Shown: positions 46,785 to 61,590 of the stretch, piece after piece
How the letters are laid out: each line of letters opens with the position of its first letter
Numbering within the stretch: position 1 is the first letter of the stretch
Assembly (NCBI GenBank): GCA_913045225.1
Contig: CAJWPC010000001.1
Location: 79,128 to 143,127, forward strand
Source of the DNA: an uncultured Rhodobiaceae bacterium
Lineage (GTDB): Bacteria > Pseudomonadota > Alphaproteobacteria > Rhizobiales > TMED25
Direction of reading: 5' to 3'
DNA length: 64,000 nt
Program-made: the position numbers and the translations under genes
The notes under the pieces: generated by a model
Databases searched by the model: none
What the model was told of the DNA's origin: nothing
Seen by the model: the letters and a program-made list of their open reading frames with translations, nothing else

Positions 46785-48755
46785 ATGACACCAAGACCAA
46801 AAAAAAATCAAGATAAACCTGAAGAGATAGTTGAAACCAAGAAAGACTCTCCGCTTATAGATACTTCTGACCGAACAGTAAAAAGCTGGATTAGACTCGG
46901 GAAAAAAAGGGGGTACATAACATACGACGAATTAAATGAGATTTTACCATCAGAAGAGGTTTCATCAGAGCAAATAGAAGATATTATGGCAATGTTTTCT
47001 GATATGGGGATAAACGTAATTGAGAACGAAGAAGCCGACGATCAATTAGGATCTGACTCAGAAGGACAGCTTCCCGCAAAAATCGAACAATCTGGATCAT
47101 CTGGTGCCGATAGATCCGATGACCCTGTCAGAATGTACCTAAAAGAGATGGGCTCTGTTGAGCTTTTATCAAGGGATGGTGAAATTGCAATTGCAAAAAG
47201 AATAGAGGCAGGTAAGGAAGCAATGATGCGTGGTCTGTGCGAGAGCCCACTAACATTTCAAGCAATAATAATTTGGAGAGAGCAGTTAAATGATGGCGAC
47301 GTACTTTTGAGAGATATCATTGACCTAGAAGCGACGTATTCTGGTCCTGATGCGCAAGAAATGCCGAAAATCGATATGATCGATGAAGTAGAAGAACCAG
47401 TCCAAAGTAATCAAGCGGATGGTGAGGATAGCGAAGATCTAGAAAAATCCATAGAAGAAGACCAAGATGACGAAGAAAATGAAAATAATCTTTCACTTGC
47501 GGCAATGGAGTTGGCATTAAAAGACCAAGTCTCGTCAAGATTTAATAAAATTGCAAAAGAATATGCAAGTCTAGAAAAATTAAAAAAATCAATTGAGAAA
47601 AAAAATGCTAATACAAAAAATTTTACTGCATCCGAAGAAAAAAAATATACAAAAATTCGTACAACACTCATTGATGAAGTCAATGCTCTATCGTTAAACG
47701 CAAACAGAATAGAAGCGCTCGTGCATCAGCTATATAATATCAACAAGAGGCTAATGTCCTTAGAAGGAAAGCTAATGAGGTTAGCAGAGAGTTATGGGGT
47801 TGACAGAAGCGAATTTATTAAACAGTACCACAATAATGAACTTGATCCGAACTGGGTTCGTCGGGTATCCAGACTAAGCGCAAAAGGTTGGAAAGACTTT
47901 ACCTCATCTGAAAAGGCTGAGATAAAAAACATAAGAGAAGAAATTTCATCGTTGGCATCTGAGGCGGGTCTGGATGTTAACGAGTTCCGGAATATAGTGC
48001 ATATGGTGCAAAAAGGAGAACGAGAGTCACATTCTGCAAAAAGAGAAATGGTCGAGGCGAACTTAAGGCTAGTTATCTCGATTGCAAAGAAATATACAAA
48101 TCGAGGCCTACAATTTCTGGATCTAATACAGGAAGGAAATATAGGCTTGATGAAAGCTGTAGAAAAATTTGAGTATCGAAGAGGCTATAAATTTTCAACT
48201 TACGCTACATGGTGGATTAGACAGGCAATAACTAGGTCAATTGCAGACCAAGCAAGAACAATTAGAATACCTGTTCACATGATTGAGACGATAAATAAGA
48301 TTGTAAGGACGTCACGACAAATACTCAATGAAATTGGGAGAGAACCAACTCCTGAAGAAATATCTGAAAAACTTGGTATGCCTCTCGATAAAGTCAGAAA
48401 AGTAATGAAGATAGCAAAAGAGCCAATTTCTCTTGAAACGCCGGTAGGTGATGAGGATGATAGTCACCTTGGCGATTTTATTGAAGACAAAAATGTTATT
48501 TTGCCCATTGATGCTGCTATCCACTCAAATTTAAGGGATACCACAACGAGAGTTCTTGCTACTTTAACACCAAGAGAAGAGAGGGTTCTAAGAATGAGGT
48601 TTGGTATTGGTATGAATACAGACCACACTCTTGAAGAGGTTGGTCAACAATTTTCTGTAACGAGAGAGAGAATCCGTCAAATCGAAGCAAAAGCGCTCAG
48701 AAAGCTGAAGCATCCATCAAGAAGCAGAAAGCTTCGAAGCTTTCTTGACAGCTAA
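46785..48755 (+). CDS. rpoD: RNA polymerase primary sigma factor
   Basis: Region 1.1, [52 protein letters not shown]. Confidence 0.99.
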
Positions 48756-48812
48756 AACCAGTCTCTTTAATATCCGAACACGTAGCTTCACCTATATTCA
48801 CATATTTGTGGC

Positions 48813-48841
48813 TTTACATATCAATAATGTAGTACTATAAA
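48813..48841 (+). promoter_or_regulatory. Sigma70 promoter for the tRNA
   Basis: TTTACA (48813-18), N17, TATAAA (48836-41), ending 7 nt before the tRNA 5' end. Confidence 0.65.
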
Positions 48842-48848
48842 AAAATTA

Positions 48849-48925
48849 GGGCGATTAGCTCAGTTGGTTAGAGCCCTCCGCTCATAACGGAGTGGTCCCA
48901 GGTTCGAGTCCTGGATCGCCCACCA
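48849..48925 (+). tRNA. tRNA with CAT anticodon, most likely tRNA-Ile2 (lysidine)
   Basis: Acceptor GGGCGAT/ATCGCCC, D arm AGCTCAGTTGGTTAGAG, anticodon arm CTCCG-CTCATAA-CGGAG, T arm GGTTCGAGTCC, encoded CCA. Lacks the fMet GGG/CCC stem; sits downstream of rpoD like E. coli ileX. Confidence 0.93.
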
Positions 48926-49053
48926 GTTGAATATTTTTACAGGGTATTGAACGATTGAAAAGAGTTATACTGATTTACTCCAACATATGAGTTACAACTT
49001 CGCTGTCAAATGTGAATCGCGAATAAGCGAATAGAAATAAAAGGAGTTAAATA

Positions 49054-49470
49054 ATGATTGAAAATTTTAATGGTATATTTTTCCTAGTGACACATATTCT
49101 TGTTCTGATAATGATAAGTTTTTATCTTATTCGTATCATATTTGCACCAAGTGGTATTGCTGAAGAGTTTGGTGTGGATAAATCAGGAATTTATATTACA
49201 AGAATATTGGGGACGTTTGTTGCGCCGTTGTTTATTATTGGCGTTTACATCATATTTAGAGACGGTGGACCGACTGGCTGTTGGATCTGGTATGTTACTT
49301 TAGCAACAACATCAATTCTTCAACTTAGTTATGAAAGTTCCTTTTATTTTAAGAAAATTGATACTGCTATTGGTGCAAAAAATAAGTTACTCGATGTGAT
49401 CGTATCCGCTATTTTTACGATAATATCAGTTGTCCTCATTCTGGGTTTATCAGATAAAATATATTTATAG
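49054..49470 (+). CDS. Hypothetical 4-TM membrane protein
   Basis: Strong AAGGAG RBS; four hydrophobic segments; family not recognised. Confidence 0.75.
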   Translation: MIENFNGIFFLVTHILVLIMISFYLIRIIFAPSGIAEEFGVDKSGIYITRILGTFVAPLFIIGVYIIFRDGGPTGCWIWYVTLATTSILQLSYESSFYFKKIDTAIGAKNKLLDVIVSAIFTIISVVLILGLSDKIYL

Positions 49471-49508
49471 TATTTCCTATTTTTTTTCACAAATGAGATT
49501 GCATTAGT

Positions 49509-49564
49509 CTCTATTTCTGTGTTAAATAGAGTGATTATTAAAACATTACATCAGTATTGTAATG
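49509..49564. promoter_or_regulatory. Two tandem inverted repeats, candidate operators of the M24 operon
   Basis: CTCTATTT-N7-AAATAGAG (49509-49531) and CATTACA-N7-TGTAATG (49544-49564). Confidence 0.5.
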
Positions 49565-49595
49565 ATGTGTAAGAAGTTAAAAAGGGGTATGAATA

Positions 49596-50942
49596 ATGAA
49601 ACCAGTGGATCCTACTAAGGGTTATGAGCTAGATACTAGCTTTATTCAAGAGCAGCACCATACAAATCCGAGAAGACTATACAGTCAAACTGGTGCAGAT
49701 TGGCAATATCGTGTTGATCACGAAAGACTAAGAAGGCAGAGATTAGAGCGAATTAGAGCCGAAATGGAAGCGGATGATCTGGGAGCGCTTGTTGTGTTTC
49801 AAGGCGCTAATGTACGATATATAACAGGTTCCTACCAAGGAAATTGGAAATATAACATTAACATTAGGTATGCTGTGCTACCTCGTGGCGGCGATCCAGT
49901 CCTGTTTGAAACAGCTGGTTCGGATATGAGAAATGCTCACTTAGACCTACCTTGGTTGGGTGAAGAAAATATTAGACCCGCTATGACATGGCAGTGGGCT
50001 GAAGGTGCTGTTGGTGAAATGGCTGACAAAATGGTCGCAACCGTAAAGCAAGTTTTAGTTGATAACGGTGTTGACAAAGAAAAGATTGGTGTTGACCAGT
50101 TAGATATGCCTGCACTTCATGCAATGGAAAAAGCTGGCATTAAAATTGTAAATGGCTGGCCAGCAATGTCACGTGCAAGAGTTGTGAAAACAATAGACGA
50201 AATCGAGCATTTAAAGATGTCATCATCAATTGGTGATGCGGCAATGTGGCATGTTAAGCATGAGTGGTTAAAACCAGGTATAACAGAACGTCAAATCGAA
50301 GCAAAAGTACACGACTTTATGCTGTCACGTGGATGTGAAATTATTTATGACATCATTGTTGCGTCCGGTGGTAATACAAGCCCATACAGAAGATGGGCAA
50401 CTGACAAACTGATTCAACAAGGCGATCTACTAATTGTTGATATTAACGCAGTTGGCCCCGGTGGTTACTTTATTGACTATGTTCGAACATTCAAATGTGG
50501 CTCGAAAATGAGTCAGCAAGAAATTGACCTATATCGTGAAACATATGACTCAATGTATGCAGGGCTAGAAAACCTTAGACCTGGAAAAACTTCAGCAGAT
50601 GTTGTATCAAAATTCCCAGAGTATGATGATGATAAGTACGGTACTGTCACACTTCAACAGTTTGCTCACTCAATAGGTATCACACTATATGAAGGGATGT
50701 GGATGAGTAGGGCTTACTCACTAAAATATCCTGCGGAAATAAAGGAAAATATGTATTTTGCTATTGAGACTTTTGCTGGACATCCAGGCCTTCCTCAAAC
50801 TTGTAGGTTAGAGGAAAATGTTCTGGTCACAAAAGATGGACCATCTGTATTTACTAAAATGGAGCATATGGAAGAGGCCGTCGCGGGATACAGACCAGGC
50901 GAATTCCATCATGCAGAGATTTTTGGATACCCTCAAAAATAA
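49596..50942 (+). CDS. M24B-fold metalloenzyme (Xaa-Pro peptidase family, DddP-like architecture)
   Basis: Creatinase-N domain (NVRYITG), RVVKT.DEI; metal ligands D (VDINA), D (FIDYVRT), H (FAHSIG), E (FAIET), E (RLEEN). Confidence 0.9.
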   Translation: MKPVDPTKGYELDTSFIQEQHHTNPRRLYSQTGADWQYRVDHERLRRQRLERIRAEMEADDLGALVVFQGANVRYITGSYQGNWKYNINIRYAVLPRGGDPVLFETAGSDMRNAHLDLPWLGEENIRPAMTWQWAEGAVGEMADKMVATVKQVLVDNGVDKEKIGVDQLDMPALHAMEKAGIKIVNGWPAMSRARVVKTIDEIEHLKMSSSIGDAAMWHVKHEWLKPGITERQIEAKVHDFMLSRGCEIIYDIIVASGGNTSPYRRWATDKLIQQGDLLIVDINAVGPGGYFIDYVRTFKCGSKMSQQEIDLYRETYDSMYAGLENLRPGKTSADVVSKFPEYDDDKYGTVTLQQFAHSIGITLYEGMWMSRAYSLKYPAEIKENMYFAIETFAGHPGLPQTCRLEENVLVTKDGPSVFTKMEHMEEAVAGYRPGEFHHAEIFGYPQK

Positions 50943-50952
50943 ATATAATATA

Positions 50953-50980
50953 AACCTCGGGGCTTTACTGCCTCGAGGTT
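50953..50980 (+). other. Intercistronic 11-bp RNA hairpin
   Basis: AACCTCGGGGC-tttact-GCCTCGAGGTT (one G-U pair); no U tail on the + strand. Confidence 0.7.
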
Positions 50981-51034
50981 CACACCATATAAAGGCAAAC
51001 TTTTGTGTATTATAAGTTTGAAAAAAATCGCTCA

Positions 51035-51820
51035 ATGATTTTTAATCCATTAATAATTGTTGCGTCTGAACTCGGTATAAGAGATTTATCATCAGAGCCT
51101 CCAAAGCCTAAAGAACAAGTCAAGGCAATGGTTACTGCTTTTCGAAAAGTCAATGACTCAGGTATTGGTAGTGTAATAGTTGATGGTGTATCAGACGAAC
51201 AAGTGACCGAGCTCGAGGGAAATGGAGCTTACACTGTTAAAACTGATATGTCTGAATTTGGAAAAGACCACAATTATCGTTCGAAATCGGGGGCTGAACG
51301 CATAGCGGCAACAGTTAATAAATTTGATCGATATTACACACATGATATTGTTGTAGCTGTGCCTGATGATATGCCCGAGCTAAAGCCATATTATATGCAA
51401 GCACTCATGTATGCACTTTCAGATAGTGATGTCGGTATTGCTACAATGGTCTCGCCGTTAACTGATGAAGAGCGATATGATAATGAAGTGGTCAAGGCAA
51501 GGGTTGATTGGAACTCTGACAGAATCGTCTATCCTTTAGAAGGATCAAAAGTCGGCACTTTAAAGGATATTAGGAGAAATATTGATGACTTTGATACTGA
51601 CGATGTATATAAGCTTGTTCCCATACATGCGTGGAGGAGGGGTCCATTAGATAAACTAATTGAGCTGCCACCATCAGACCGTGAATTTGAAGAAGGAACG
51701 GACCTTGTTCGAGCCTTAGATGCTGGCATGAGGATTGATGTCACATTTGTAACTGACAATATGAAGGTATTGATTACACCAGAAGAATTAGATGAAGCCG
51801 CATATGAAATTGAAGGATAG
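51035..51820 (+). CDS. KdsB (CMP-Kdo synthetase)-like protein with degenerate active site
   Basis: SGAERI, DIVVAVPDDMP, GIATMV, EVVKA, AWRRGPL, LPPS..E, RALDAGMRIDV and ITPEEL follow the alphaproteobacterial KdsB scaffold; start reassigned to ATG 51035. Confidence 0.8.
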   Translation: MIFNPLIIVASELGIRDLSSEPPKPKEQVKAMVTAFRKVNDSGIGSVIVDGVSDEQVTELEGNGAYTVKTDMSEFGKDHNYRSKSGAERIAATVNKFDRYYTHDIVVAVPDDMPELKPYYMQALMYALSDSDVGIATMVSPLTDEERYDNEVVKARVDWNSDRIVYPLEGSKVGTLKDIRRNIDDFDTDDVYKLVPIHAWRRGPLDKLIELPPSDREFEEGTDLVRALDAGMRIDVTFVTDNMKVLITPEELDEAAYEIEG

Positions 51821-51846
51821 TCTGTTGCTTCAAAATGAGGTTTAAA

Positions 51847-53115
51847 ATGAATAGACCATACTACAAGCCAGATCCTGTTGGGGGGGCAGAACAATATGTT
51901 GGTGCTGAACATAAACTTAATGAGCCATGGGAGGAACAAGCCCATAATGTAAAATTAGTTGGGCATTCAGATCTAAATGGCTGGGGTGACGCCTTCCAGA
52001 TACAGGTATCAAATGGAATATGTTATGTTGCAGCTTCAGGAATTAATGGTCATAATGGCATGACAATTCTTGATGTCAAAGATCCGTCAAAGCCGAAAAT
52101 ATTAAATCAAATATCAGACTCGCCTGGTGCAAGAACCCATAAGGTTCTCAGAATTAGTGATGATGTATTAATTACAAATTCAGAGCTGAGGCCTAATCTA
52201 GTTGGTCAATATCCAGAACTAAAAGGTGGATTAAGAGTTTTTGATATATCAGATCCTATTAATCCAAAGTTTATTAGACACGTTGAAGTAGATAGTTTTG
52301 GTATACATAGACCGATCTATGATAGGGATAGAAAATTGATGTATAGTTCTGGTTTTAAAGACGGTTATAATGGAAAAATACTGCTTATTCATGATATGAA
52401 AGATCCATCAAATCCTCGTTTTATTGGTCATGGTTGGGTTGAGGGTCAAAAAGAAGGCGAAGAGTATTCATGGGATAACTCAATAGTTAAAAACGAAGCT
52501 TGGTGCCACGAAGGAAATCCATGGGGTAATTTCGTTACCGCCGGATGGTGGGATGGGGGTATTGTTTTATTTGATTGTACGGATCCATCAAAACCAGAAT
52601 TTAAGTGGAGACATAACCCTCATGAAACCCATGGTTGGCCGGGAAACTATCATAGTTTTCTTGTGCCAAAAGGCTCTGAATTTGGAATTGTCACTCAAGA
52701 AACTATAACTGTCAACTGTGAACACCCGCCAGCATTTATTACATTCTACGATTTAAGAAATAGAGATGTCCCTCTTCCAGTAAGTACATATATGCCATTT
52801 GATATAGATCCATATGAGATGAGACCATTAGACTCTAAATGGGGGCAGACAGGATCAAGGCATGGCGCTCATAATATATGGTTGGATATGGAAAAAAATG
52901 ATCTTATCTACATTGCTTGGTTTAATGCTGGGTTAAGAATCATTGACTGGAGCAATCCATTTAGCCCCAAAGAAGTTGGATCTTATATCCCAGCAGGAAA
53001 TAGAGAACGATGCTGTCCACAAAGTAACGATGTTTATGTTGATCGTGAAACCGGACTTATATATATGTCTGATCGATGGGGATTAGGTCTGCATATTCTC
53101 GAATATACAGGTTAA
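51847..53115 (+). CDS. LVIVD-repeat beta-propeller protein, cytoplasmic
   Basis: Repeats LDVKDPSKP, FDISDPINP, HDMKDPSNP, FDCTDPSKP, YDLRNRDVP, IDWSNPFSP; no signal peptide; start ATG 51847 or 51835. Confidence 0.85.
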   Translation: MNRPYYKPDPVGGAEQYVGAEHKLNEPWEEQAHNVKLVGHSDLNGWGDAFQIQVSNGICYVAASGINGHNGMTILDVKDPSKPKILNQISDSPGARTHKVLRISDDVLITNSELRPNLVGQYPELKGGLRVFDISDPINPKFIRHVEVDSFGIHRPIYDRDRKLMYSSGFKDGYNGKILLIHDMKDPSNPRFIGHGWVEGQKEGEEYSWDNSIVKNEAWCHEGNPWGNFVTAGWWDGGIVLFDCTDPSKPEFKWRHNPHETHGWPGNYHSFLVPKGSEFGIVTQETITVNCEHPPAFITFYDLRNRDVPLPVSTYMPFDIDPYEMRPLDSKWGQTGSRHGAHNIWLDMEKNDLIYIAWFNAGLRIIDWSNPFSPKEVGSYIPAGNRERCCPQSNDVYVDRETGLIYMSDRWGLGLHILEYTG

Positions 53116-53120
53116 ATTAT

Positions 53121-54308
53121 ATGAAAAAACCTTTAGAAGGTATTAGGGTAATTGAGTTTGGCAACTTTATTGCTGGACCTTTCTGCGGAATGTTGCTTGC
53201 AGATATGGGAGCAGAAGTAATAAAAATTGAGCCTCTGTCAGGTGACTTGGCCCGAGCTATACCACCAATAATTGATGGTAAAAGTGCTGCATTTATGACT
53301 CTAAATAGGAATAAAAAAAGTCTAGCAATAGATTTAAAGTCGAACCATGGTAGGTCTCTTACGCTTGAGATATGCAAATCAGCAAATGTCATAATTGAGA
53401 ACAATAGACCAGGTGTGATGCAAAGACTGGGTTTGGGTGAAGAGGAAGTAAAAAAAATAAATAATAAAATTGTTTATACATCTGTATCTGGTTTTGGACA
53501 AACAGGTGAATTAAAAAATAGAGCGGGGATAAATCTTATTATTGAAGCATTATCTGGAACGTTGTCCGTAATGGGTGAGAAAGGCGAAATTCCCCCAAGG
53601 CCCGGCTTGCAAACCGCAGACATTCTTGGTGCAATGTTTGCAACCTATTCAACTTTAGCTGGATTAATTGGACAGATTCAACACAATCAAGGTATGCATG
53701 CAGATGTAGCTCTAATCGAGGCATCCATCGCCTCTGCTGTATGGGAAACAACAGAATACTTATCGAGTGGTATCGTTCCAGAACAATTAGGGCATTCACA
53801 CCGAGCAAGTGCACCATATCAATTATTTGAAACAAATGATAAAAGGTATATTGCAATAGGCGCGCCGAGTGACGCACATTTTAAGAGATTGATGAACATA
53901 CTAGATCTAAATGATTTATGTGAAAATCCGAAATTTACTTCATATTCCAGTAGAAAAGAAAATGAAAACGATCTTGTCCCAGTTGTTGCAGAAAAAATAA
54001 TGGATTGGGACTCATCAAATTTAGAAATTAAATTGACAGAAGCTGGTATACCATGCGGCTGTGTAAGAAATTACAAAGAAGCTCTAAATAATCCTCATAG
54101 CATCGAAAGGCAGCTGGTAAAGGAAATAAGTGATGGTCAAGGTTCTAAAATTAAGACAATACGTAATCCAGTCTTAATTAATAAAAAACCAATAAGAATT
54201 GATAACCTTGCTCCAGAATTAGGTCAGCACAGCTTTGAAATTTTAAATGAAGTTGGTATTGATAAAAATGCGTTCAGCAAACTTGTCAGTGATGGGATTA
54301 CTATCTAG
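53121..54308 (+). CDS. Class III CoA-transferase (CaiB/BaiF family)
   Basis: AGPFCGMLLADMGAEVIKIEP, NRNKKS..DLK, ENNRPG, catalytic Asp in ADILGA, APELGQH; start reassigned to ATG 53121. Confidence 0.94.
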   Translation: MKKPLEGIRVIEFGNFIAGPFCGMLLADMGAEVIKIEPLSGDLARAIPPIIDGKSAAFMTLNRNKKSLAIDLKSNHGRSLTLEICKSANVIIENNRPGVMQRLGLGEEEVKKINNKIVYTSVSGFGQTGELKNRAGINLIIEALSGTLSVMGEKGEIPPRPGLQTADILGAMFATYSTLAGLIGQIQHNQGMHADVALIEASIASAVWETTEYLSSGIVPEQLGHSHRASAPYQLFETNDKRYIAIGAPSDAHFKRLMNILDLNDLCENPKFTSYSSRKENENDLVPVVAEKIMDWDSSNLEIKLTEAGIPCGCVRNYKEALNNPHSIERQLVKEISDGQGSKIKTIRNPVLINKKPIRIDNLAPELGQHSFEILNEVGIDKNAFSKLVSDGITI

Positions 54309-55356
54309 TTTTTACTTTTTCTATTATTGCATTTGTCATATCAATTGTAGAAGATTTTCCTCCAATATCTGCTGTTAGGTATTTTCTTTCTTTGATTACT
54401 TCTGATGTTGACTCCTCAATAATATTTGAAGCCATAATTAATTTTTCCTCATTATATTTAGAGCCCATCCATGATAACAGCATTGATGTTGACATAATCA
54501 TGGCATATGGGTTCGCAACATTTTTTCCTGCAATATCCGGCGCAGAACCATGCGTTGCTTGAGCCATTGCAATATTTTCTCCAAGACAGAGACCAGGCGC
54601 CATGCCAATTGAACCAATTAAACCTGCTCCAATATCACTTAATATATCGCCGAATTGATTTGTTGTTACAACAACATCAAATGACTCAGGATTTGAGACT
54701 AGGTGCATAGCAGTTGTATCAATTAGTGTATCCTCATAAGAGATTGAAGGATATTCCTTTGAAACTTTTACGCATTCCTCCAAGAACATTCCACAACTTA
54801 ATCTAAATAGGGGTTCTTTATGTGCTGCTGTAACTTTGGATCTATTTTTGCTTATAGCCAAATCAAAGGCAGCTTTAGCTACTCGATTAGAACCTTTTCT
54901 TGTAATAACCCTTGATGCGATAGTGATATCATCGTTTGGACGAAATTCAGGGTATCCTCCAACAATTGTGTCTGAACTCTGCAGACCTTCAGTTAATTCT
55001 CTGACGAAAATGATATCTATATTCTTCGAATTATCATATGACTTCGCAGGTCTTACCGCAGCATATAATTCAAATTTTTTTCTAATAGGGGGCATTTTCC
55101 ACGTCGAGTCATTTCGGGGATAATTATTATGCCCAATAGGGCCACAAATTATTCCATGGACTTCATTTAATTGAGATACTGTGTATTCAGGAAAGGTATC
55201 GCCGTACTTACTATGTGCTAAATTTCCAATGGGTAAGTCAATTAGTTCAATATCATACCCAAGGGTCTTTAGTGCTTCAGTTAATACCAACTTTGCCATT
55301 GGGACAATTTCTATACCAATATCATCACCGTTCATAATTGCAATTTTTAGCTTCAT
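54301..55356 (-). CDS. Isocitrate/isopropylmalate/tartrate dehydrogenase family (beta-decarboxylating dehydrogenase)
   Basis: GDDIGIEIV, VRELTEG, NQFGDILSD, ATHGSAPDIAGK..ANP, TADIGG. Confidence 0.92.
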   Translation of the reverse strand: MKLKIAIMNGDDIGIEIVPMAKLVLTEALKTLGYDIELIDLPIGNLAHSKYGDTFPEYTVSQLNEVHGIICGPIGHNNYPRNDSTWKMPPIRKKFELYAAVRPAKSYDNSKNIDIIFVRELTEGLQSSDTIVGGYPEFRPNDDITIASRVITRKGSNRVAKAAFDLAISKNRSKVTAAHKEPLFRLSCGMFLEECVKVSKEYPSISYEDTLIDTTAMHLVSNPESFDVVVTTNQFGDILSDIGAGLIGSIGMAPGLCLGENIAMAQATHGSAPDIAGKNVANPYAMIMSTSMLLSWMGSKYNEEKLIMASNIIEESTSEVIKERKYLTADIGGKSSTIDMTNAIIEKVKTR

Positions 55357-55386
55357 GCTGAAATGATATCAGATTTGGAAATGAAA

Positions 55387-56016
55387 TTAATCAAATTTTT
55401 TTGATAGATTATTTATGAGTTGGGATACAGATTTATTAGAAAGATAGGATGTAAACTCGTCTTTTTTTTGGAGCGTAAGCGATACACCAGCAAGAGTTAG
55501 GTCTATTACTTTATACTGCTGATCTTTATTTATAATTATCCACCATCTTATTGATGCAAGTCTTGAGTCATCCTTAAGAACATCACCATCCACCAAAAAC
55601 TCTCTATTTTTTGACCCTTTGGTTCTACAACTGTCATTAACAATCCCGTATGTAACGTCTGGTTCCTCTTCATCATTATCCAATCTATCATATATCGTCT
55701 TCGTCAGCATCTTTTGGATAAGATCGGTATAGACCTCTTTCATGTCATCAGGTAGTTTCCGTGCATATTTACCGAGCATGACTTTGCCCATTGTCTCGAA
55801 ATCAGCATTTTTGTTGAGTAGCTCCGAAAGATTAGATTTTTTTTGATTTTTGGTAAACTCAGATGAGTTTATGATACTTAATGTTTCATCTGTTACTTCA
55901 TTAATGAAAGCAATAGCCTCATCGCAATATTCCCTACCATTGGCGCTCGACACAAAAATAACTAATAATAACAATGAACCAATGAGGTATTTATTTAAAT
56001 TCTGAAACATGATCAA
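55387..56016 (-). CDS. mlaC: Phospholipid-binding periplasmic protein MlaC/Ttg2D
   Basis: Signal peptide, DF..MG...LG.Y, KVIDL..AGVSL.....DEF.S. Confidence 0.85.
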   Translation of the reverse strand: MIMFQNLNKYLIGSLLLLVIFVSSANGREYCDEAIAFINEVTDETLSIINSSEFTKNQKKSNLSELLNKNADFETMGKVMLGKYARKLPDDMKEVYTDLIQKMLTKTIYDRLDNDEEEPDVTYGIVNDSCRTKGSKNREFLVDGDVLKDDSRLASIRWWIIINKDQQYKVIDLTLAGVSLTLQKKDEFTSYLSNKSVSQLINNLSKKFD

Positions 56017-56021
56017 CCTAG

Positions 56022-56855
56022 TTAGAATACTAAGTTGAGATCCCGTGCTGTGTCAATTGAAAATTCAGATGGTTCGTCGCTTGGAACACCGTTTGAAATT
56101 TCATCCATTCTTCTTTGCATGTACATATTTCTTATACTAACATAGTAATCAGTAGAACTTGCCTCGATGTCATCAAGCACATCTAGTAGTTCTTCTCGAG
56201 CAACTACAGCTTCTGAAATTCCGTATGAGTAACGATATCCATCATTTTGATTTTGCAAATACCAAGTTAGTGGGTGTACCGCAAAGTCCACTACACGCCC
56301 AGCAATATGACGCGGCGTTGATGGTCCAAAAAGAGGCGAGACAATGTAGGGACCGCTTTCAACACCATAAACAGCGAGTGTTTGTGCAAAATCTTCTGTG
56401 TGCCTCGGGTATCCCATATCTGTCGCTGGATCACCAAATCCAAAAAAACCAACTGAAGAATTTATGACAAACCTATTAACTGTGTTAGATGCTCGTTCTT
56501 CTTCACCTTGAAGGATATCATTAAAAAGAATTGTCGGAGATTCTAAGTTGCGTAGGAAATTCCTAATCGACTCGCGACCGCCTTCTGGCACAATATCCCG
56601 ATAAGCTTGAGCCATTGGTTTTAATATTGCTTTGTCAACTGCTTGGTTAAAAGCAAACATCTTTCTATTAGTTTCCTCGAAGGGATCAAAAGTATTATAA
56701 TCGATTTCAGGGGAAGATGGCTCGACGTAGGATGAATTATAATTTTCTTCAATAAATTGGGATATATCTGCTTTGGATGCTGTTGTATGCAAAAAAAGCA
56801 TTATAGAAAGTGTTATTACAAAGAGTATTCTATGTATATTTATTTTGGCCACCAT
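56022..56855 (-). CDS. mlaA: VacJ/MlaA family protein
   Basis: DPFE..NR.MF.FN...D...LKP, RF.INS.VG..G..D.A, EDFAQTL..YG...GPY.V.PL.GPSTPR. Confidence 0.92.
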   Translation of the reverse strand: MVAKINIHRILFVITLSIMLFLHTTASKADISQFIEENYNSSYVEPSSPEIDYNTFDPFEETNRKMFAFNQAVDKAILKPMAQAYRDIVPEGGRESIRNFLRNLESPTILFNDILQGEEERASNTVNRFVINSSVGFFGFGDPATDMGYPRHTEDFAQTLAVYGVESGPYIVSPLFGPSTPRHIAGRVVDFAVHPLTWYLQNQNDGYRYSYGISEAVVAREELLDVLDDIEASSTDYYVSIRNMYMQRRMDEISNGVPSDEPSEFSIDTARDLNLVF

Positions 56856-57105: not shown

Positions 57106-58029
57106 ATGAAATCAAATCAAATAGTTTTGCTTGATGGGGGAATTGGCCAGGAGATATACAAAAGAGCTGGATCACCCGAATCAAAAACGCTCTGGTCTTT
57201 ACAGATCATGCGAGATAATCCAGATATTGTAGTTGGCGTACATAAGGATTTTATAAATGCAGGATCAAAAGTTTTAAGCTTAAATAATTATGCTGCAACC
57301 CCATCAAGATTAGAGAGAGTTGGTATGCGAGACAGTTTTGATGAAATCCACTCTTTGTCCATCCAGTTGTTGAATACCGCAATTTCTGAATCAAAGTATA
57401 CTAGATCAGATTTGTCCATCGCTGGTTGCTTGCCGCCACTTATCGCTAGTTATACAGCTGAGGATAGTAGAGGCAATAAGGAACTTTTTGACGAGTATAT
57501 TCTTTTAATTGAACAGCAAATTGATGATGTCGATTTATTTCTGGTGGAGACAATGTCTAGCATCAAAGAGATAATTGTTGTCACCGATGCTCTTGATCAT
57601 TTTGGACTGGGTAAGTATGTTAGTCTCACGTTAGATGATGATTATCCCAATTTGCTCAGATCTGGTGAAAATTTGGTAGATGCGATTAAATTATTGGAAA
57701 TGAAATCCGCAGACGCAATTTTATTAAATTGCTCCTGTCCAGAAACAATATCCTCAGCGTTAACTAAATTTAAAAATATTGACATACCCTTTGGTGCTTA
57801 CGCAAATGGTTTCTCTTCTGTCAAAGATTTGAAATTTGGAAAAAGTGTAAATGTATTGGAGGCAAGAAATGACCTCGGTCCGGATGAATATTTAAAATTT
57901 GTGATGGATTGGATCAGTAAAGGTGCAAGAATAATTGGTGGCTGTTGTGAGATTGGTCCAAAGCACATCAATAGAGTTTCAGATCAGTTACACCTTAATG
58001 GCTACACAACCATGAAGCTTAGATTATAA
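57106..58029 (+). CDS. Homocysteine S-methyltransferase family protein
   Basis: LLDGGIG.E, VHKDFI.AG, ETMS, Zn ligands LNC and GGCC. Confidence 0.9.
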   Translation: MKSNQIVLLDGGIGQEIYKRAGSPESKTLWSLQIMRDNPDIVVGVHKDFINAGSKVLSLNNYAATPSRLERVGMRDSFDEIHSLSIQLLNTAISESKYTRSDLSIAGCLPPLIASYTAEDSRGNKELFDEYILLIEQQIDDVDLFLVETMSSIKEIIVVTDALDHFGLGKYVSLTLDDDYPNLLRSGENLVDAIKLLEMKSADAILLNCSCPETISSALTKFKNIDIPFGAYANGFSSVKDLKFGKSVNVLEARNDLGPDEYLKFVMDWISKGARIIGGCCEIGPKHINRVSDQLHLNGYTTMKLRL

Positions 58030-61000
58030 CTTATTTTTTTTACCGTATCCTCCACCTGAAGGAGTAGTGATCATCAGCTGATCTCCGATGGCTAATTCTA
58101 TTTGGCAATTTCCTTCTATCTCTATTGCCACATTGTTTCTTATTATTGTGTTTGACCCCAGCTTCCCCGGCTCACCTCCACAAAGACCAAATGGCTGTTC
58201 TTTCCTGTTATTTGATAACAGAGAACAACTCATATTATCACAAATGAAGAATATTTTTTTTAAACCACGGCCACCTGCAAATTTACTATTATATTGTTTC
58301 CCCTCAACTAGGGATATTTCTGAGAGAATAATTGGGTATTCTTCCTCAAAAATTTCAGGATCGGTAGATCTTGAATTTGTCATATTTGTCTGTATCGCAT
58401 CACAACCATTATGATTTTTCCCTGCTCCCTGACCTCCGCATACAGTTTCATAATATTGAAATTTGTCATTACCAAAAATGATATTGTTCATTGTAGATTG
58501 ACAAGATGCTTTGATGGAGAGCGCACCAAAAATACAATTTGCAAGAGCTTGGCTCACTTCAACATTTCCCGCTGAGACGGCCGCATTTTTTGAGGGATTT
58601 ATTATAGAGTTGCTGTCCGTAGATATTTCTACAGGTTCAAGGATTCCTGAATTTAGAGGAATATCCTCATTAATTAAACATCTTAAGACATAAATTATGA
58701 CAGCTTTTGTGATTGGAAGCGGCGCATTAAAATTATCTGAACTTTCTCCACTTGATCCAGTGAAGTCAAAGTTAATCTTTTTACCATCAGAGCATGTATT
58801 TATTCTTAATTTGAGATAAAAATTATCAAGTGTCATATCAAAGCTTGATGCTTTAATATTTTTCAATATCCCGAGACATGCCTCTTTTGCATTCTCTTGT
58901 ATTGCAAACATTTGTTTAAGAACAACCTCTAATCCATAGTAGTCAATGATTTTACGCAATTGTATCTCACCAATTTTATTTGCTGCTGCTTGAGCTGTAA
59001 TGTCTTGTATGTTGAGCTCTGGATTTCTCGCTGGATATTTACCACTATTTAATTTTTTTTGTAATCGTTCGTGTTTCGTAAGATCATTCATCCGAATTTT
59101 AAAATTATCAAATATAATACCTTCATCATCCAATTTTTTTGCTTCGGGAGTCATAGATCCAGGATAAATTCCACCAATATCAGGGTGATGACCCCGCGTG
59201 GCCAAGTAAAAAATTATATCATTGGTTTTATCAGAAAAGATAGGGGAAATAATAGTAATATCAGGCAAATGCGTTCCTCCAGAACTAGGTGAGTTATTTA
59301 TAAATATATCCCCCCTGTTTACAGATTGATTTTTCTTGATAAGCCCTTTTACGCAATCATCCATAGATCCGAGATGTACTGGTATATGAGGTGCATTCGC
59401 AACAAGATTACCGATATTATCAAATAGAGCACACGAGTAATCAAGCCGCTCTTTTATATTTATAGAGGCCGCAGTCCTTTGTAGTGTTTCCCCCATTGTT
59501 TCTGCTACTGACATAAAAAGGTTGTTAAAAATCTCCAACATTATTGGTGACTCATCAGCTTTTCTATGAGTTTTTGATGTTTTTATTTTTTTTATTAGAA
59601 TATTGCCTGATTGGTCCCTAGTTGCTTGCCATCCCTCTTCTACGATTATTGTTGAGTGATCATCAATCAGAATTGCTGGCCCTGTAAGTTTGAAGTCATA
59701 GAATTTTTCTATTCGACACACAATTGCCTTAACCCATTTTCCTTTACTATAGAAATTTTCATAATCAATCTTATTTTCAGTATTTATTTTTTTTATGGGC
59801 AGTTCGATTTTATTATATCGAGGAGTTGTTTCAACTTGGATCATATCAAGTATAATTTTTCTATTTAGATTATAGCCGTATATCTTTTTATGAATTTTCC
59901 TAAAATTTTTGATTAAATCTTCACACTTAATATTTGATTTTTTTTCTTTTATGCAAATACTTTGATCGGTACCCTTGTACTTCAAATAAAATAAATTTAA
60001 ATGAGATACAGTCATGGATTTGGTGTTAGCTAGGTTTTCTTTTTGTAATTTTTTTATAAGAGCATCAATTTTATTTCTATATTTTTTATCAAATTCAAAA
60101 AAAGTACTCTCTTGTTTAATATACTTCTCTCCAGATTGAGCCATACCATATGCCGATAAAAAACTTGATAGTGGATTAATAATAACTGTTTTGATCTCAA
60201 GGTTCTCAGCAATCTGGCAAGCGTGTTGGCCACCAGCCCCCCCATAACTCACGAGCGCATGCTCTTCCAAGTGCAGACCTTTCCTTGTGGCAATTTTTCT
60301 TATTACTCTACACATTTTCTCAACTGCAATTTTTATAAACCCTTCAGCTACATCTTCTGGAAGCATTTTTGGATCTATATTATCTCTCAGTTGATTGAAT
60401 TCCTTAGATACAATTTGCTTATTCAGTGAGGATTTGCCGTCATGGCCAAACTTCTGTGGGAAATACTTTTCTATAATTTTGCCAAGAAATAGGTTTGCAT
60501 CTGTAAGTGTGAGGGGGCCATTTTTTCCATAAGACATTGGTCCGGGGTATGAACCCGCTGATTTTGGTCCAACGATCATCCTCGAGTTCCTATAGTCTAA
60601 AATTGAACCTCCACCAGAAGCAATTGTATCTATATCAATGATAGGTACCTGAAGTATTTGGTTATCGATCGTTTTCTCATTCTTGTACTCCAATTCACCC
60701 TCGAAATGTGAGACGTCTGTAGAAGTGCCACCCATATCAAAAGTTATAATTTTTTTAAAGCCTGAGTTTTTACCGACTGAGATTGCACCCATTACGCCCC
60801 CAGCTGGACCCGATAATATAGAATTTATACCTCGGAAGTTTTTTTCTTCTGCTAGGCCACCATTCGATTGCATGTATCTAAGACTAATATTATTCTTATT
60901 AAAATTTATTTCTTTTTTTAAATTATCAATATCGCTTCTGATAATAGGATCTACATAGGCATGAACAAGAGATGTATGGGTTCTTCGTATATATTTAATC

Positions 61001-61590
61001 GTTTTTGAAATTTCATGACCAAGTGTAACATTTTTGTGTCCAAGTTGATTTAATATACTTTGGATCTCAATTTCATAACTGGGAAATTTCCATCCATGAA
61101 TTAAGCTTACACAAATTGAATTATAATTCCCTATTTTTATTTGTTTTAATTGCTCCGTAATTGTTTTCCAATTTGGTTTTATGAAATCATTCCCACTATT
61201 TGTGAGACGGATGTCCAATTCTATTACTTTTGAATACAACGGGATTGGCCTTTTGATTTCTAGTGAAAATATATCTTCTCTACTTTGATAACCAATCTTT
61301 TGGCAGTCTCTAAAGCCTTTTGGAACAATTAAAAGTGTTTTTTCACCTGTTCTCTCCAAAAGAGTATTTGTAGCTTTCGTTGTTCCAACGGTTATATTCC
61401 CTATATTTTTAAGGTCTGCAGAGTTATCGGTTAAGATTTTTTTTATACCAGTTGAAACAGGGTCATCATTCTTGTTTTGAGACTGACTCAATACTTTTTC
61501 TAGAAATAGATTATTATTTGGGGAAAGGGCAATTACATCAGTAAATGTACCACCTTTATCTATCCAGAAATTCCAATTATTTTTTTCCAT
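58024..61590 (-). CDS. ATP-dependent 5-oxoprolinase / fused hydantoinase A-B family
   Basis: DKGGTFTD, SGPAGGV, DMGGTSTDV, NIKERLDYSCA, IPVHLGSM, GGTHLPD, YYET..GG.GA, TPSGGGYG. Confidence 0.93.
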   Translation of the reverse strand: MEKNNWNFWIDKGGTFTDVIALSPNNNLFLEKVLSQSQNKNDDPVSTGIKKILTDNSADLKNIGNITVGTTKATNTLLERTGEKTLLIVPKGFRDCQKIGYQSREDIFSLEIKRPIPLYSKVIELDIRLTNSGNDFIKPNWKTITEQLKQIKIGNYNSICVSLIHGWKFPSYEIEIQSILNQLGHKNVTLGHEISKTIKYIRRTHTSLVHAYVDPIIRSDIDNLKKEINFNKNNISLRYMQSNGGLAEEKNFRGINSILSGPAGGVMGAISVGKNSGFKKIITFDMGGTSTDVSHFEGELEYKNEKTIDNQILQVPIIDIDTIASGGGSILDYRNSRMIVGPKSAGSYPGPMSYGKNGPLTLTDANLFLGKIIEKYFPQKFGHDGKSSLNKQIVSKEFNQLRDNIDPKMLPEDVAEGFIKIAVEKMCRVIRKIATRKGLHLEEHALVSYGGAGGQHACQIAENLEIKTVIINPLSSFLSAYGMAQSGEKYIKQESTFFEFDKKYRNKIDALIKKLQKENLANTKSMTVSHLNLFYLKYKGTDQSICIKEKKSNIKCEDLIKNFRKIHKKIYGYNLNRKIILDMIQVETTPRYNKIELPIKKINTENKIDYENFYSKGKWVKAIVCRIEKFYDFKLTGPAILIDDHSTIIVEEGWQATRDQSGNILIKKIKTSKTHRKADESPIMLEIFNNLFMSVAETMGETLQRTAASINIKERLDYSCALFDNIGNLVANAPHIPVHLGSMDDCVKGLIKKNQSVNRGDIFINNSPSSGGTHLPDITIISPIFSDKTNDIIFYLATRGHHPDIGGIYPGSMTPEAKKLDDEGIIFDNFKIRMNDLTKHERLQKKLNSGKYPARNPELNIQDITAQAAANKIGEIQLRKIIDYYGLEVVLKQMFAIQENAKEACLGILKNIKASSFDMTLDNFYLKLRINTCSDGKKINFDFTGSSGESSDNFNAPLPITKAVIIYVLRCLINEDIPLNSGILEPVEISTDSNSIINPSKNAAVSAGNVEVSQALANCIFGALSIKASCQSTMNNIIFGNDKFQYYETVCGGQGAGKNHNGCDAIQTNMTNSRSTDPEIFEEEYPIILSEISLVEGKQYNSKFAGGRGLKKIFFICDNMSCSLLSNNRKEQPFGLCGGEPGKLGSNTIIRNNVAIEIEGNCQIELAIGDQLMITTPSGGGYGKKNKL

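What the first reader, a model, noticed from the sequence alone, without database searches (positions are those of the whole stretch)
49596..50942. M24 enzyme keeps all five metal ligands but swaps both substrate-binding His for Tyr
Seen: SGGNTSPYRR where peptidases have S...PH, and HSIGITLYE where they have HGIGLxxHE; the N-terminal extension (MKPVDPTKG...) and 448-aa length resemble DddP. Established: E. coli PepP needs His243 and His361, and DddP has an Asp base in its HGVGLCDEW loop, which is absent here. Inference: neither a standard prolidase nor a true DddP, but a new M24 activity. Sampled lines look GC-richer than dnaG, like the conserved pet genes, suggesting strong constraint.
Basis: partly seen in the sequence, partly recalled or inferred. 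Interest (0 to 1): 0.65.

Follow-up and report, generated by a model that had tools for sequence, protein, structure and literature searches.

The report
Ultra-conserved orphan M24 metalloenzyme family
A marine OCS116 bacterium carries a strongly transcribed, extremely conserved metal enzyme of the prolidase/DddP fold that lacks the residues needed for either known job. Its substrate is unknown, and it is one branch of a large unexplored enzyme radiation rather than a unique oddity.

Summary
The ORF at 49596-50942 (+, 448 aa) is real and has the Creatinase_N + Peptidase_M24 architecture. All five canonical metal ligands are invariant (D282, D294, H358, E391, E406). The three auxiliary His of Xaa-Pro peptidases are missing: Y264 or R265 stands for PepP His243 depending on the alignment, Q354 for His350, and Y365 for His361. 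The DddP-specific residues are missing too (N284, L353, L364). DddP is the nearest named family and solved fold, but the protein scores 122 bits against a 600-bit cutoff and falls outside the DddP-signature clade.

It belongs to a tight family with at least 75% amino-acid identity across Alpha-, Gamma- and Deltaproteobacteria, Acidobacteria and Anaerolineae, although synonymous sites are saturated. A Tyr/Tyr pair is common among neighbouring unnamed M24B clades, so it is not unique.

In alpha- and gammaproteobacteria the gene is followed by a degenerate KdsB-like gene, across a conserved hairpin. Elsewhere it sits with isopropylmalate-synthase-like, 2-hydroxyacid-dehydrogenase, SDR, GFO and TRAP/TTT genes. 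In three of five marine metatranscriptomes examined its contig depth is about 5-10 times that of rpoD and of the partner.

Most likely it is a non-peptidase binuclear metalloenzyme acting on a small hydroxy- or oxo-carboxylate. The substrate is unresolved.

The parts
49596..50942 (+). M24B metalloenzyme gene (448 aa): N-terminal extension, Creatinase_N domain and pita-bread catalytic domain
   Evidence: ORF. Pfam PF01321 + PF00557. AF2 model with pLDDT 92.6. Best solved folds are DddP 4S01/4RZY/4B28, TM 0.77-0.79.
49827..49871 (+). Invariant N-domain stretch GSYQGNWKYNINIRY (residues 78-92). It probably helps shape the active site or the dimer interface.
   Evidence: Residues 78-92 are all invariant in 26 sequences. 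The role is inferred from the DddP dimer description in PMC4108388.
50364..50393 (+). SGGNTSPYRR loop (residues 257-266). Y264 or R265 occupies the place of PepP His243; R266 is widely conserved in the radiation.
50439..50477 (+). D282-x-N284 ... D294: two Asp metal ligands. N284 replaces DddP's extra ligand D297.
50652..50693 (+). LQQFAHSIGITLYE. L353 corresponds to DddP Y366, Q354 to PepP H350, H358 is a metal ligand, L364 corresponds to DddP D377, Y365 to PepP H361 / Pf H291, and E366 follows.
50766..50813 (+). E391 and E406 (metal ligands) and R404 (equivalent of the peptidase R-x-E arginine, retained)
50877..50939 (+). C-terminal tail AVAGYRPGEFHHAEIFGYPQK. A tail ending ...GYP..K accompanies the partner gene. 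Partner-less Rhodospirillaceae carry a different tail ending (...GRDH), and the 422-aa forms have no tail.
50953..50980 (+). Strong intercistronic stem-loop (11 bp) just after the M24 stop codon. Transcript contigs stop at 50997-51021.
   Evidence: Fold -25.6 kcal/mol, z = -6.0. A hairpin of different sequence sits at the same place in most partner-carrying lineages. Depth drops after it.
50987..51008 (+). Second, weaker hairpin covering the AAAGG and GTG start region of the partner gene
51005..51820 (+). Degenerate KdsB-like gene (271 aa from the GTG; the conserved part starts at the ATG at 51035). It is the conserved downstream partner.
   Evidence: Full-length but sub-threshold KdsB hits. 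It lacks the PAR..GKPL, QGD and GVDT motifs. It lies directly downstream in 14 of 31 M24 groups.

Best explanation
The gene encodes a catalytically competent binuclear-metal enzyme of the creatinase/prolidase (M24B, pita-bread) fold. It is not a peptidase and not a DMSP lyase.

Proposed mechanism (inferred): the two metals, held by D282, D294, H358, E391 and E406, bind the carboxylate or carbonyl of a small anionic substrate, most likely a hydroxy- or oxo-carboxylic acid derivative taken up by TRAP/TTT carriers. R266, R404 and the two tyrosines position and polarise it. Chemistry then goes one of two ways:
- attack by metal-bridged hydroxide on a C-N or C-O bond, as in creatinase and DoeA. I favour this slightly (about 0.35 of all probability);
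- DddP-style alpha-proton abstraction with beta-elimination (about 0.2).

The product would be a 2-hydroxy or 2-oxo acid. Neighbouring 2-hydroxyacid dehydrogenases and an isopropylmalate-synthase-like enzyme would process it further.

In alpha- and gammaproteobacteria a degenerate, catalytically dead KdsB-like protein, and often a stand-alone CobW_C protein, are co-encoded. They are made at lower levels behind an intercistronic hairpin. They probably act as accessory, maturation or regulatory factors rather than stoichiometric catalytic subunits.

Shown: fold, ligand conservation, loss of the peptidase and DddP residues, extreme purifying selection, gene linkage, transcript levels.
Inferred: substrate class, reaction type, role of the partner.
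For: - Fold and ligands.
- Loss of the three peptidase His and of DddP D297/Y366/D377.
- All curated family cutoffs missed. Only the DddP model hits any of 94 relatives, and nothing else is named. The family is a separate tight clade.
- Constraint: at least 75% identity across phyla with saturated four-fold sites.
- Context across 31 groups dereplicated at 92% identity: partner 14, IPMS-like 12, GlcD-like or D-2-hydroxyacid dehydrogenase 12, SDR 9, GFO/IDH/MocA 8, TRAP/TTT 8. The same D-2-HADH group (mostly 42-48% identical) lies within 6 kb of the M24 in bacterial loci labelled Acidobacteria, Anaerolineae and Alphaproteobacteria, and about 10 kb away on a Haloarcula plasmid.
- A coherent delta-proteobacterial operon: SDR-M24-SDR-cupin-cupin-SDR-SDR-TctCBA-GFO.
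- No peptide transporter or peptidase genes recur in these contexts.
- Partner: linkage and tail correlation, dead motifs, hairpin, roughly 5-10-fold lower transcript depth.
Against: - No biochemical data exist and no ligand is identified.
- Gene contexts are heterogeneous. Apart from the partner, no neighbour occurs in more than about 40% of groups.
- R404 and E366, typical of peptidases, are retained.
- Tyr could in principle substitute for His as an oxyanion hydrogen-bond donor, so an unusual peptide or amide substrate is not excluded.
- Contig depth is a poor measure of expression.
- A 47-52% identical KdsB-like group stands alone in a housekeeping-type locus without the M24, so the partner family is not exclusively tied to this enzyme.
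- Which of Y264 and R265 faces the metals was not checked on coordinates.
Confidence: 0.55

Rival explanations
1. It is a divergent Xaa-Pro (or other) di-/aminopeptidase in which Tyr, Arg and Gln have taken over the roles of the three auxiliary histidines, perhaps for an unusual dipeptide.
For: - The five ligands, R404 (R-x-E) and E366 (the 'HE' glutamate) are retained.
- Prolidases are the second-best sequence and fold matches.
- Sources annotate it as a Xaa-Pro aminopeptidase.
Against: - His243, His350 and His361 equivalents are all absent and invariantly replaced.
- Scores are far below the PepQ and PepP cutoffs.
- Neighbours are oxidoreductases, an IPMS-like enzyme and carboxylate transporters, not peptide permeases.
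- The family nests in a DddP-proximal, non-peptidase radiation.
Confidence: 0.15
2. It is a lyase using DddP-like chemistry. The metals bind the carboxylate, the alpha-proton is abstracted and a beta-leaving group is eliminated. The substrate could be DMSP or a related sulfonium, a C3 sulfonate such as sulfolactate, or a sugar acid (dehydratase reaction).
For: - DddP is the nearest named family and the nearest solved fold.
- High transcript depth in surface-ocean metatranscriptomes.
- A TauE-family exporter ends the delta operon in two related loci. HisD-like, SDR and 2-HADH genes surround the Haloarcula homologue.
- Adjacent GlcD-like, 2-HADH and IPMS-like enzymes could consume pyruvate or lactate.
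- The partner derives from an enzyme that binds a 2-keto-3-deoxy sugar acid.
Against: - DddP's proposed base D377, Y366 and ligand D297 are L364, L353 and N284.
- The family also occurs in groundwater, peat, lake and anaerobic sediment MAGs, where DMSP is unlikely.
- TauE is found in only 2 related loci, and that family is not specific for sulfite.
- No paper links M24 to sulfonate pathways.
Confidence: 0.2
3. The linkage with the KdsB-like gene is incidental, or the 'partner' is simply the lineage's real but divergent CMP-Kdo synthetase. In that case the M24 works alone.
For: - The core enzyme is at least 75% identical in lineages with and without the partner.
- The partner is far less conserved, 28-55% identity.
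- A related KdsB-like group stands alone near argG-rmuC-def-fmt.
- Partner transcript depth is low.
Against: - The partner lies directly downstream on the same strand, from overlapping to about 266 nt away (most within about 110 nt), in 14 of 31 groups. These span loci labelled Hyphomicrobiales, Rhodobacteraceae, Caulobacterales/Hyphomonadaceae, Rhodospirillales, Gammaproteobacteria (including Candidatus Rariloculaceae) and one Betaproteobacteria MAG, with otherwise different neighbours.
- Presence correlates with a specific M24 C-terminal tail.
- The CTP-binding and Mg-binding motifs are lost, so it is unlikely to be an active KdsB.
Confidence: 0.25

Closest known systems
DddP (DMSP lyase, M24-like; PDB 4RZY/4S01/4B28; NCBIfam NF043017)
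   Same: - Best sequence match (E about 1e-23 to 1e-27) and best fold match (TM 0.77-0.79).
- Same architecture, including the N-terminal extension aligned from residue 4.
- Five shared metal ligands.
- The peptidase His in the 'P-x' loop is also lost (DddP has Trp).
   Different: - 20% identity; 122 bits against a 600-bit cutoff.
- Sixth ligand D297 is N284, Y366 is L353, and the proposed base D377 is L364.
- R404 stands where DddP has Lys.
- It falls outside the clade carrying the DddP signature.
- It occurs in many non-marine and anaerobic lineages.
Xaa-Pro dipeptidase/aminopeptidase (PepQ, PepP, prolidase; e.g. 1PV9, 1A16)
   Same: Pita-bread fold with Creatinase_N domain; five metal ligands; the R-x-E arginine; the glutamate after the second auxiliary position.
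   Different: His243, His350 and His361 (PepP numbering) are replaced by Y264/R265, Q354 and Y365. Scores are far below the family cutoffs. There is no peptide-related gene context.
Ectoine hydrolase DoeA/EutD (6TWJ), which works with the deacetylase DoeB/EutE
   Same: An M24B enzyme that opens a small carboxylated non-peptide substrate. It is encoded beside the second enzyme (DoeB/EutE) with which it acts. The fold match is significant.
   Different: 61 bits against a 613-bit cutoff. The partner here is a dead KdsB-like protein, not a deacetylase. No ectoine catabolic genes are nearby.
Creatinase (creatine amidinohydrolase; 1KP0, 7YTO)
   Same: Same two-domain fold; acts on a small carboxylated non-peptide substrate.
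   Different: From established knowledge, creatinase is metal-free and lacks the ligand set. This protein keeps all five ligands invariantly. No creatinase model was hit.

Membership tests
Peptidase M24 superfamily (M24B, creatinase/prolidase type) | Pfam Peptidase_M24 and Creatinase_N domains above gathering score; pita-bread fold | tested here: met
   PF00557 109 bits (cutoff 23) and PF01321 35 bits (cutoff 22). AF2 model plus Foldseek hits.
Peptidase M24 superfamily (metal-dependent members) | Five metal ligands D, D, H, E, E | tested here: met
   D282, D294, H358, E391 and E406 are aligned and invariant.
Xaa-Pro peptidases (PepP/PepQ/prolidase) | Auxiliary histidines equivalent to E. coli PepP His243, His350 and His361 | tested here: not met
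   Y264/R265, Q354 and Y365. They are invariant in the family.
Xaa-Pro peptidases (PepP/PepQ/prolidase) | Curated NCBIfam score cutoffs | tested here: not met
   PepQ 80.8 vs 630; PRK09795 72.5 vs 393; PepP 45.8 vs 465.
Xaa-Pro peptidases (PepP/PepQ/prolidase) | Hydrolysis of Xaa-Pro bonds | not testable with these tools
   Needs an enzyme assay.
DddP DMSP lyase | NCBIfam NF043017 equivalog cutoff (600 bits) | tested here: not met
   122.5 bits.
DddP DMSP lyase | Invariant D297 (sixth ligand), Y366 and D377 (proposed base), per PMC4108388 | tested here: not met
   N284, L353 and L364.
DddP DMSP lyase | Placement inside the DddP clade | tested here: not met
   In the NJ tree of 94 sequences, the clade with W264/D284/D294/Y353/D364 is separate from the query clade. 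There was no bootstrap and no experimentally verified DddP in the tree; the clade was identified by its signature and by the NCBIfam hits.
DddP DMSP lyase | DMS release from DMSP | not testable with these tools
   Needs a gas-chromatography assay.
Ectoine hydrolase DoeA/EutD | TIGR02993 / NF038259 cutoffs | tested here: not met
   60.6 vs 613 and 35.5 vs 575.
Creatinase | Metal-free active site lacking the Asp/Glu ligand set (established knowledge) | tested here: not met
   All five ligands are present and invariant. Creatinase structures rank only 26th or lower in Foldseek.
CMP-Kdo synthetase KdsB (for the partner gene) | Curated cutoffs and the PAR..S.RLPGKPL, QGD and GVDT motifs seen in canonical KdsB sequences | tested here: not met
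   89 bits vs 281 and no Pfam hit. The motifs are absent in the alignment with canonical P0388/P0390.

The most novel reading that the evidence does not exclude
The M24 protein, its degenerate KdsB-like companion and, in some lineages, a stand-alone CobW_C protein form a previously unrecognised enzyme system. It would carry out a non-peptidase reaction, for example DddP-style elimination or ring/amide opening, on an abundant dissolved hydroxy-, sulfo- or N-containing carboxylate. Its high transcript level in OCS116 would then mark a quantitatively relevant, unannotated step of marine organic-matter turnover.
Probability: 0.2. Interest if true: 0.7.

Novelty: new variant of a known kind. Interest (0 to 1): 0.45.

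Why it matters
M24B enzymes have repeatedly turned out to catalyse environmentally important non-peptidase reactions, as with DddP, creatinase and ectoine hydrolase.

This family is annotated everywhere as 'Xaa-Pro aminopeptidase', yet it lacks the peptidase residues. It is under unusually strong purifying selection across phyla. It also appears to be one of the best-transcribed genes of this OCS116 genome region in seawater.

Identifying its substrate would correct a widespread misannotation. It could also reveal an unrecognised catabolic step for a common organic acid.

The surrounding radiation comprises 214 clusters at 50% identity. Among the 94 closest sequences scanned, only the DddP model gave a named hit. 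That makes it a sizeable reservoir of unknown chemistry.

Tried and rejected
- **Dihydrophloroglucinol cyclohydrolase.** The SDR-flanked delta operons suggested it. Rejected: DPGC belongs to the 'cyclase' family, not M24.
- **Riboswitch or leader RNA as a ligand clue.** No Rfam hit upstream in the window or in 8 diverse loci; only tRNAs were found.
- **Promoter/terminator pattern scan.** Not above the shuffled expectation.
- **Literature.** Searches for DddP-like proteins, M24 non-peptidases, OCS116 + Xaa-Pro, and sulfonate pathways + M24 found nothing on this family.
- **First AF2 run.** With 26 near-identical sequences it gave pLDDT 49 and was discarded. The run with 94 diverse sequences succeeded.
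- **TRAP binding protein and IPMS-like neighbour against PDB.** Only distant, uninformative matches.
- **NCBIfam on the delta-operon SDRs, cupins, TctC and TauE.** Generic hits only.
- **Organosulfonate idea.** TauE occurs in only 2 related loci and HisD-like genes in 3. Kept only as a minor rival.
- **Model coordinates.** Not available to scripts, so the Y264-versus-R265 question could not be settled geometrically.

Full report
**What is there.** The window comes from a marine alphaproteobacterium of the OCS116 cluster (Rhodobiaceae/Hyphomicrobiales). Six genome records carry the same protein at 100% identity. The ORF 49596-50942 (+) is real and encodes 448 aa. It lies after dnaG, rpoD, a tRNA (48849-48922) and a small membrane-protein gene. 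Pfam finds Creatinase_N plus Peptidase_M24. An AlphaFold model built on a diverse alignment is confident (pLDDT 92.6). Its best solved-structure matches are the DMSP lyase DddP (TM 0.77-0.79, 20% identity), followed by prolidases, ectoine hydrolase EutD/DoeA and creatinase.

**Checking the observation.**
- Alignments with DddP and with P. furiosus prolidase place D282, D294, H358, E391 and E406 on the five canonical metal ligands. All five are invariant in 26 family members.
- Y365 aligns without gaps to the second auxiliary histidine, Pf His291 / PepP His361.
- The first auxiliary histidine is less clear. Anchoring on the conserved Pro gives Y264, but the ungapped profile alignment gives R265.
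- In 89 related clusters, positions 264 and 266 follow clade-specific patterns while 265 is scattered. This favours Y264 and R266 as the active-site-facing residues. I could not inspect coordinates.
- There is no His anywhere in residues 262-268. The third peptidase histidine, PepP His350, is Q354.
- Compared with DddP, the sixth ligand D297 is N284, Y366 is L353 and the proposed base D377 is L364.
- R404, the peptidase R-x-E arginine, is retained.
- The gene is GC-richer (0.414) than dnaG (0.325), mainly at codon positions 1 and 2.

**Family placement.** Every curated NCBIfam model is missed by a wide margin: DddP 122 vs 600, PepQ 81 vs 630, DoeA 61 vs 613, PepP 46 vs 465.
- A search of about 5.8 billion proteins gave 1599 hits, and the best 120 are all 76-98% identical.
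- In a library clustered at 50% identity, the family collapses to essentially one representative (61% identity). The next full-length relative is at 41%, and many clades follow at 27-40%. In total 214 clusters have E < 1e-30.
- Of the 94 closest sequences, only 11 match any named NCBIfam model at E below 1e-60, and that model is DddP.
- In an NJ tree the query family is a long-stemmed, tight clade inside a 'P-Y-x-R' group. The clade carrying the DddP signature (W264, D284, D294, Y353, D364) is separate.
- Tyr at position 264 occurs in 25 of the 89 full-length representatives and Tyr at 365 in 29. The Tyr/Tyr pair is therefore a recurrent state in this radiation, not a unique feature.

**Constraint.** The protein is 76-88% identical between the 36%-GC OCS116 genome and hosts whose copy of this gene has GC3 of 0.55-0.96. 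Those loci are labelled Rhodobacteraceae, Rhodospirillales, Hyphomonadaceae, Gammaproteobacteria, Deltaproteobacteria, Anaerolineae and Acidobacteria. Four-fold degenerate sites within identical residues match in only 11-33% of cases, which means they are saturated. This is long-term purifying selection, not recent transfer. A haloarchaeal plasmid carries a 60% identical homologue.

**Partner and operon anatomy.** In 14 of 31 M24 groups (dereplicated at 92% identity), all alpha-, beta- or gammaproteobacterial, the next gene on the same strand is a 230-290 aa protein with no Pfam hit.
- It is a full-length but sub-threshold KdsB homologue.
- It has lost the PAR..GKPL, QGD and GVDT motifs present in canonical KdsB sequences, and it has family-specific insertions.
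- Its presence goes with a particular C-terminal tail on the M24 (...YRxGxFHH....GYP..K). Partner-less Rhodospirillaceae have a ...GRDH tail, and the 422-aa deltaproteobacterial, acidobacterial and Anaerolineae forms have no tail.
- A stand-alone CobW_C gene precedes the M24 in several alpha/gamma lineages.
- A 47-52% identical KdsB-like sister group stands alone between argG and rmuC-def-fmt-truA, without the M24. The partner family is therefore not exclusive to this enzyme.
- A strong stem-loop (50953-50980, -25.6 kcal/mol, z = -6) separates the two genes. Hairpins of unrelated sequence occupy the same position in most partner-carrying lineages.

**Expression.** Five marine metatranscriptomes (X1-X5) were examined.
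- In X1-X3, contig depth over the M24 gene is 25-40x. That compares with about 0-9x over rpoD, about 0-2x over dnaG and 0-8x over the partner.
- X4, laid only on 48700-55500, shows 12-18x over the M24 against at most about 4x over its flanks.
- X5 shows no such excess.
- Contigs end at 50997-51021, just past the hairpin.
- Contig depth is a crude measure. Even so, the pattern repeats across three independent studies. It fits an abundant, essentially monocistronic M24 mRNA with attenuated read-through into the partner gene.

**Other context.** Outside the partner, neighbours vary but some recur across phyla:
- an isopropylmalate/homocitrate-synthase-like gene, 12 of 31 groups, at least 49% identical to one another;
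- GlcD-like or D-2-hydroxyacid dehydrogenases, 12 of 31;
- SDRs, 9 of 31;
- GFO/IDH/MocA oxidoreductases, 8 of 31, often directly upstream;
- TRAP or TTT carboxylate transporters, 8 of 31.

A deltaproteobacterial operon reads XRE-cupin | SDR-M24-SDR-cupin-cupin-SDR-SDR-TctCBA-GFO-TauE, with IPMS-like and GlcD-like genes divergent from it. The Haloarcula copy sits with SDRs, a xanthine-dehydrogenase-family enzyme, an amidohydrolase, a cyclase and HisD-like and CtBP-like dehydrogenases. In the window itself the downstream genes are the partner, an LVIVD beta-propeller, a CaiB-type CoA-transferase and a convergent isocitrate/isopropylmalate-dehydrogenase-like gene. No peptide transporters recur.

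**Interpretation.** The intact, invariant metal site argues for a working enzyme. Loss of all three peptidase histidines and of the DddP-specific residues argues against both known activities. The contexts point to catabolism of a small hydroxy- or oxo-carboxylate.
- I favour a non-peptidase binuclear metalloenzyme (0.55 overall). Within that, hydrolysis of a C-N or C-O bond is slightly more likely than DddP-style beta-elimination.
- The partner and CobW_C proteins are most simply read as accessory or maturation factors, given their low conservation, dead motifs and lower transcript level. This is inference.
- Rivals are an unusual peptidase (0.15) and a DddP-like lyase acting on a sulfonium, sulfonate or sugar-acid substrate (0.2).
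- The substrate remains unknown, and I found no paper describing the family.

**Verdict.** 'Not prolidase, not DddP' is supported. 'New activity' is plausible but unproven, and the active-site pattern is less exceptional than implied. The family is an uncharacterised, misannotated, very strongly constrained branch of a large M24B radiation. It has a conserved pseudo-KdsB companion and notable in-situ transcript levels. Interest is moderate.

Noticed in passing
window 48849-48922 (+): A tRNA gene (69.8 bits) lies between rpoD and the small membrane-protein gene upstream of the M24 gene.
   Followed up: no
window 51835-53115 (+) and 53076-54308 (+): An LVIVD-repeat beta-propeller protein has a faint hit to methanethiol oxidase MtoX (22 bits vs 650). 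Its 3' end overlaps the start of a CaiB-type family III CoA-transferase by 40 nt. The LVIVD gene is missing in some close OCS116 relatives (L021, L023, L032, L033), while the M24, partner, CaiB and IDH-like genes remain.
   Followed up: partly
window 54301-55356 (-): An isocitrate/isopropylmalate/tartrate-dehydrogenase-like gene is convergent with the CaiB gene and overlaps its last 8 nt. It is below all equivalog cutoffs. It could be functionally linked, because other lineages pair the M24 with an isopropylmalate-synthase-like gene.
   Followed up: partly
window 57106-58029 (+) and 58024-61590 (-): A homocysteine S-methyltransferase-family gene sits next to a fused 1188-aa hydantoinase A/B (oxoprolinase-like) gene. 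MlaC and MlaA lie at 55387-56855 (-).
   Followed up: no
Alignment A3 / representatives P0121-P0270: In 47 of 89 related full-length clusters the second Asp metal ligand (position 294) is Cys. In a subset the first Asp is also replaced (Q/N/L/A with C-C). This suggests different metal chemistry or metal-free, creatinase-like states in this radiation.
   Followed up: no
L093-L098 (gene at 6001-6792 of L093): A 263-aa degenerate KdsB-like group, 47-52% identical to the partner, stands alone in a conserved argG - x - rmuC - def - fmt - truA locus of marine Rhodospirillales-type contigs. It might serve in trans the partner-less M24 forms of that order. This was not tested.
   Followed up: partly
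L003 4660-5910 (+): A second, DddP-like M24 paralogue (416 aa, 112 bits to the DddP model) lies 2 kb upstream of the family member. It is followed by a PPDK_N/PEP-utilising enzyme and a SnoaL-like protein.
   Followed up: no
L092 (Haloarcula sp. JP-L23 plasmid CP050017.1, 47290-48636): An archaeal homologue at 60% identity sits in a cluster with three SDRs, xanthine-dehydrogenase-family subunits, an amidohydrolase, a cyclase-family protein, and HisD-like and CtBP-like dehydrogenases.
   Followed up: partly
L029 (Bauldia litoralis MAG), intergenic after the M24 stop: The intercistronic hairpin here is a perfect 16-bp GC-rich stem followed by TTTTTT (z = -10). It looks like a full intrinsic terminator between the M24 and the partner gene.
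   Followed up: no
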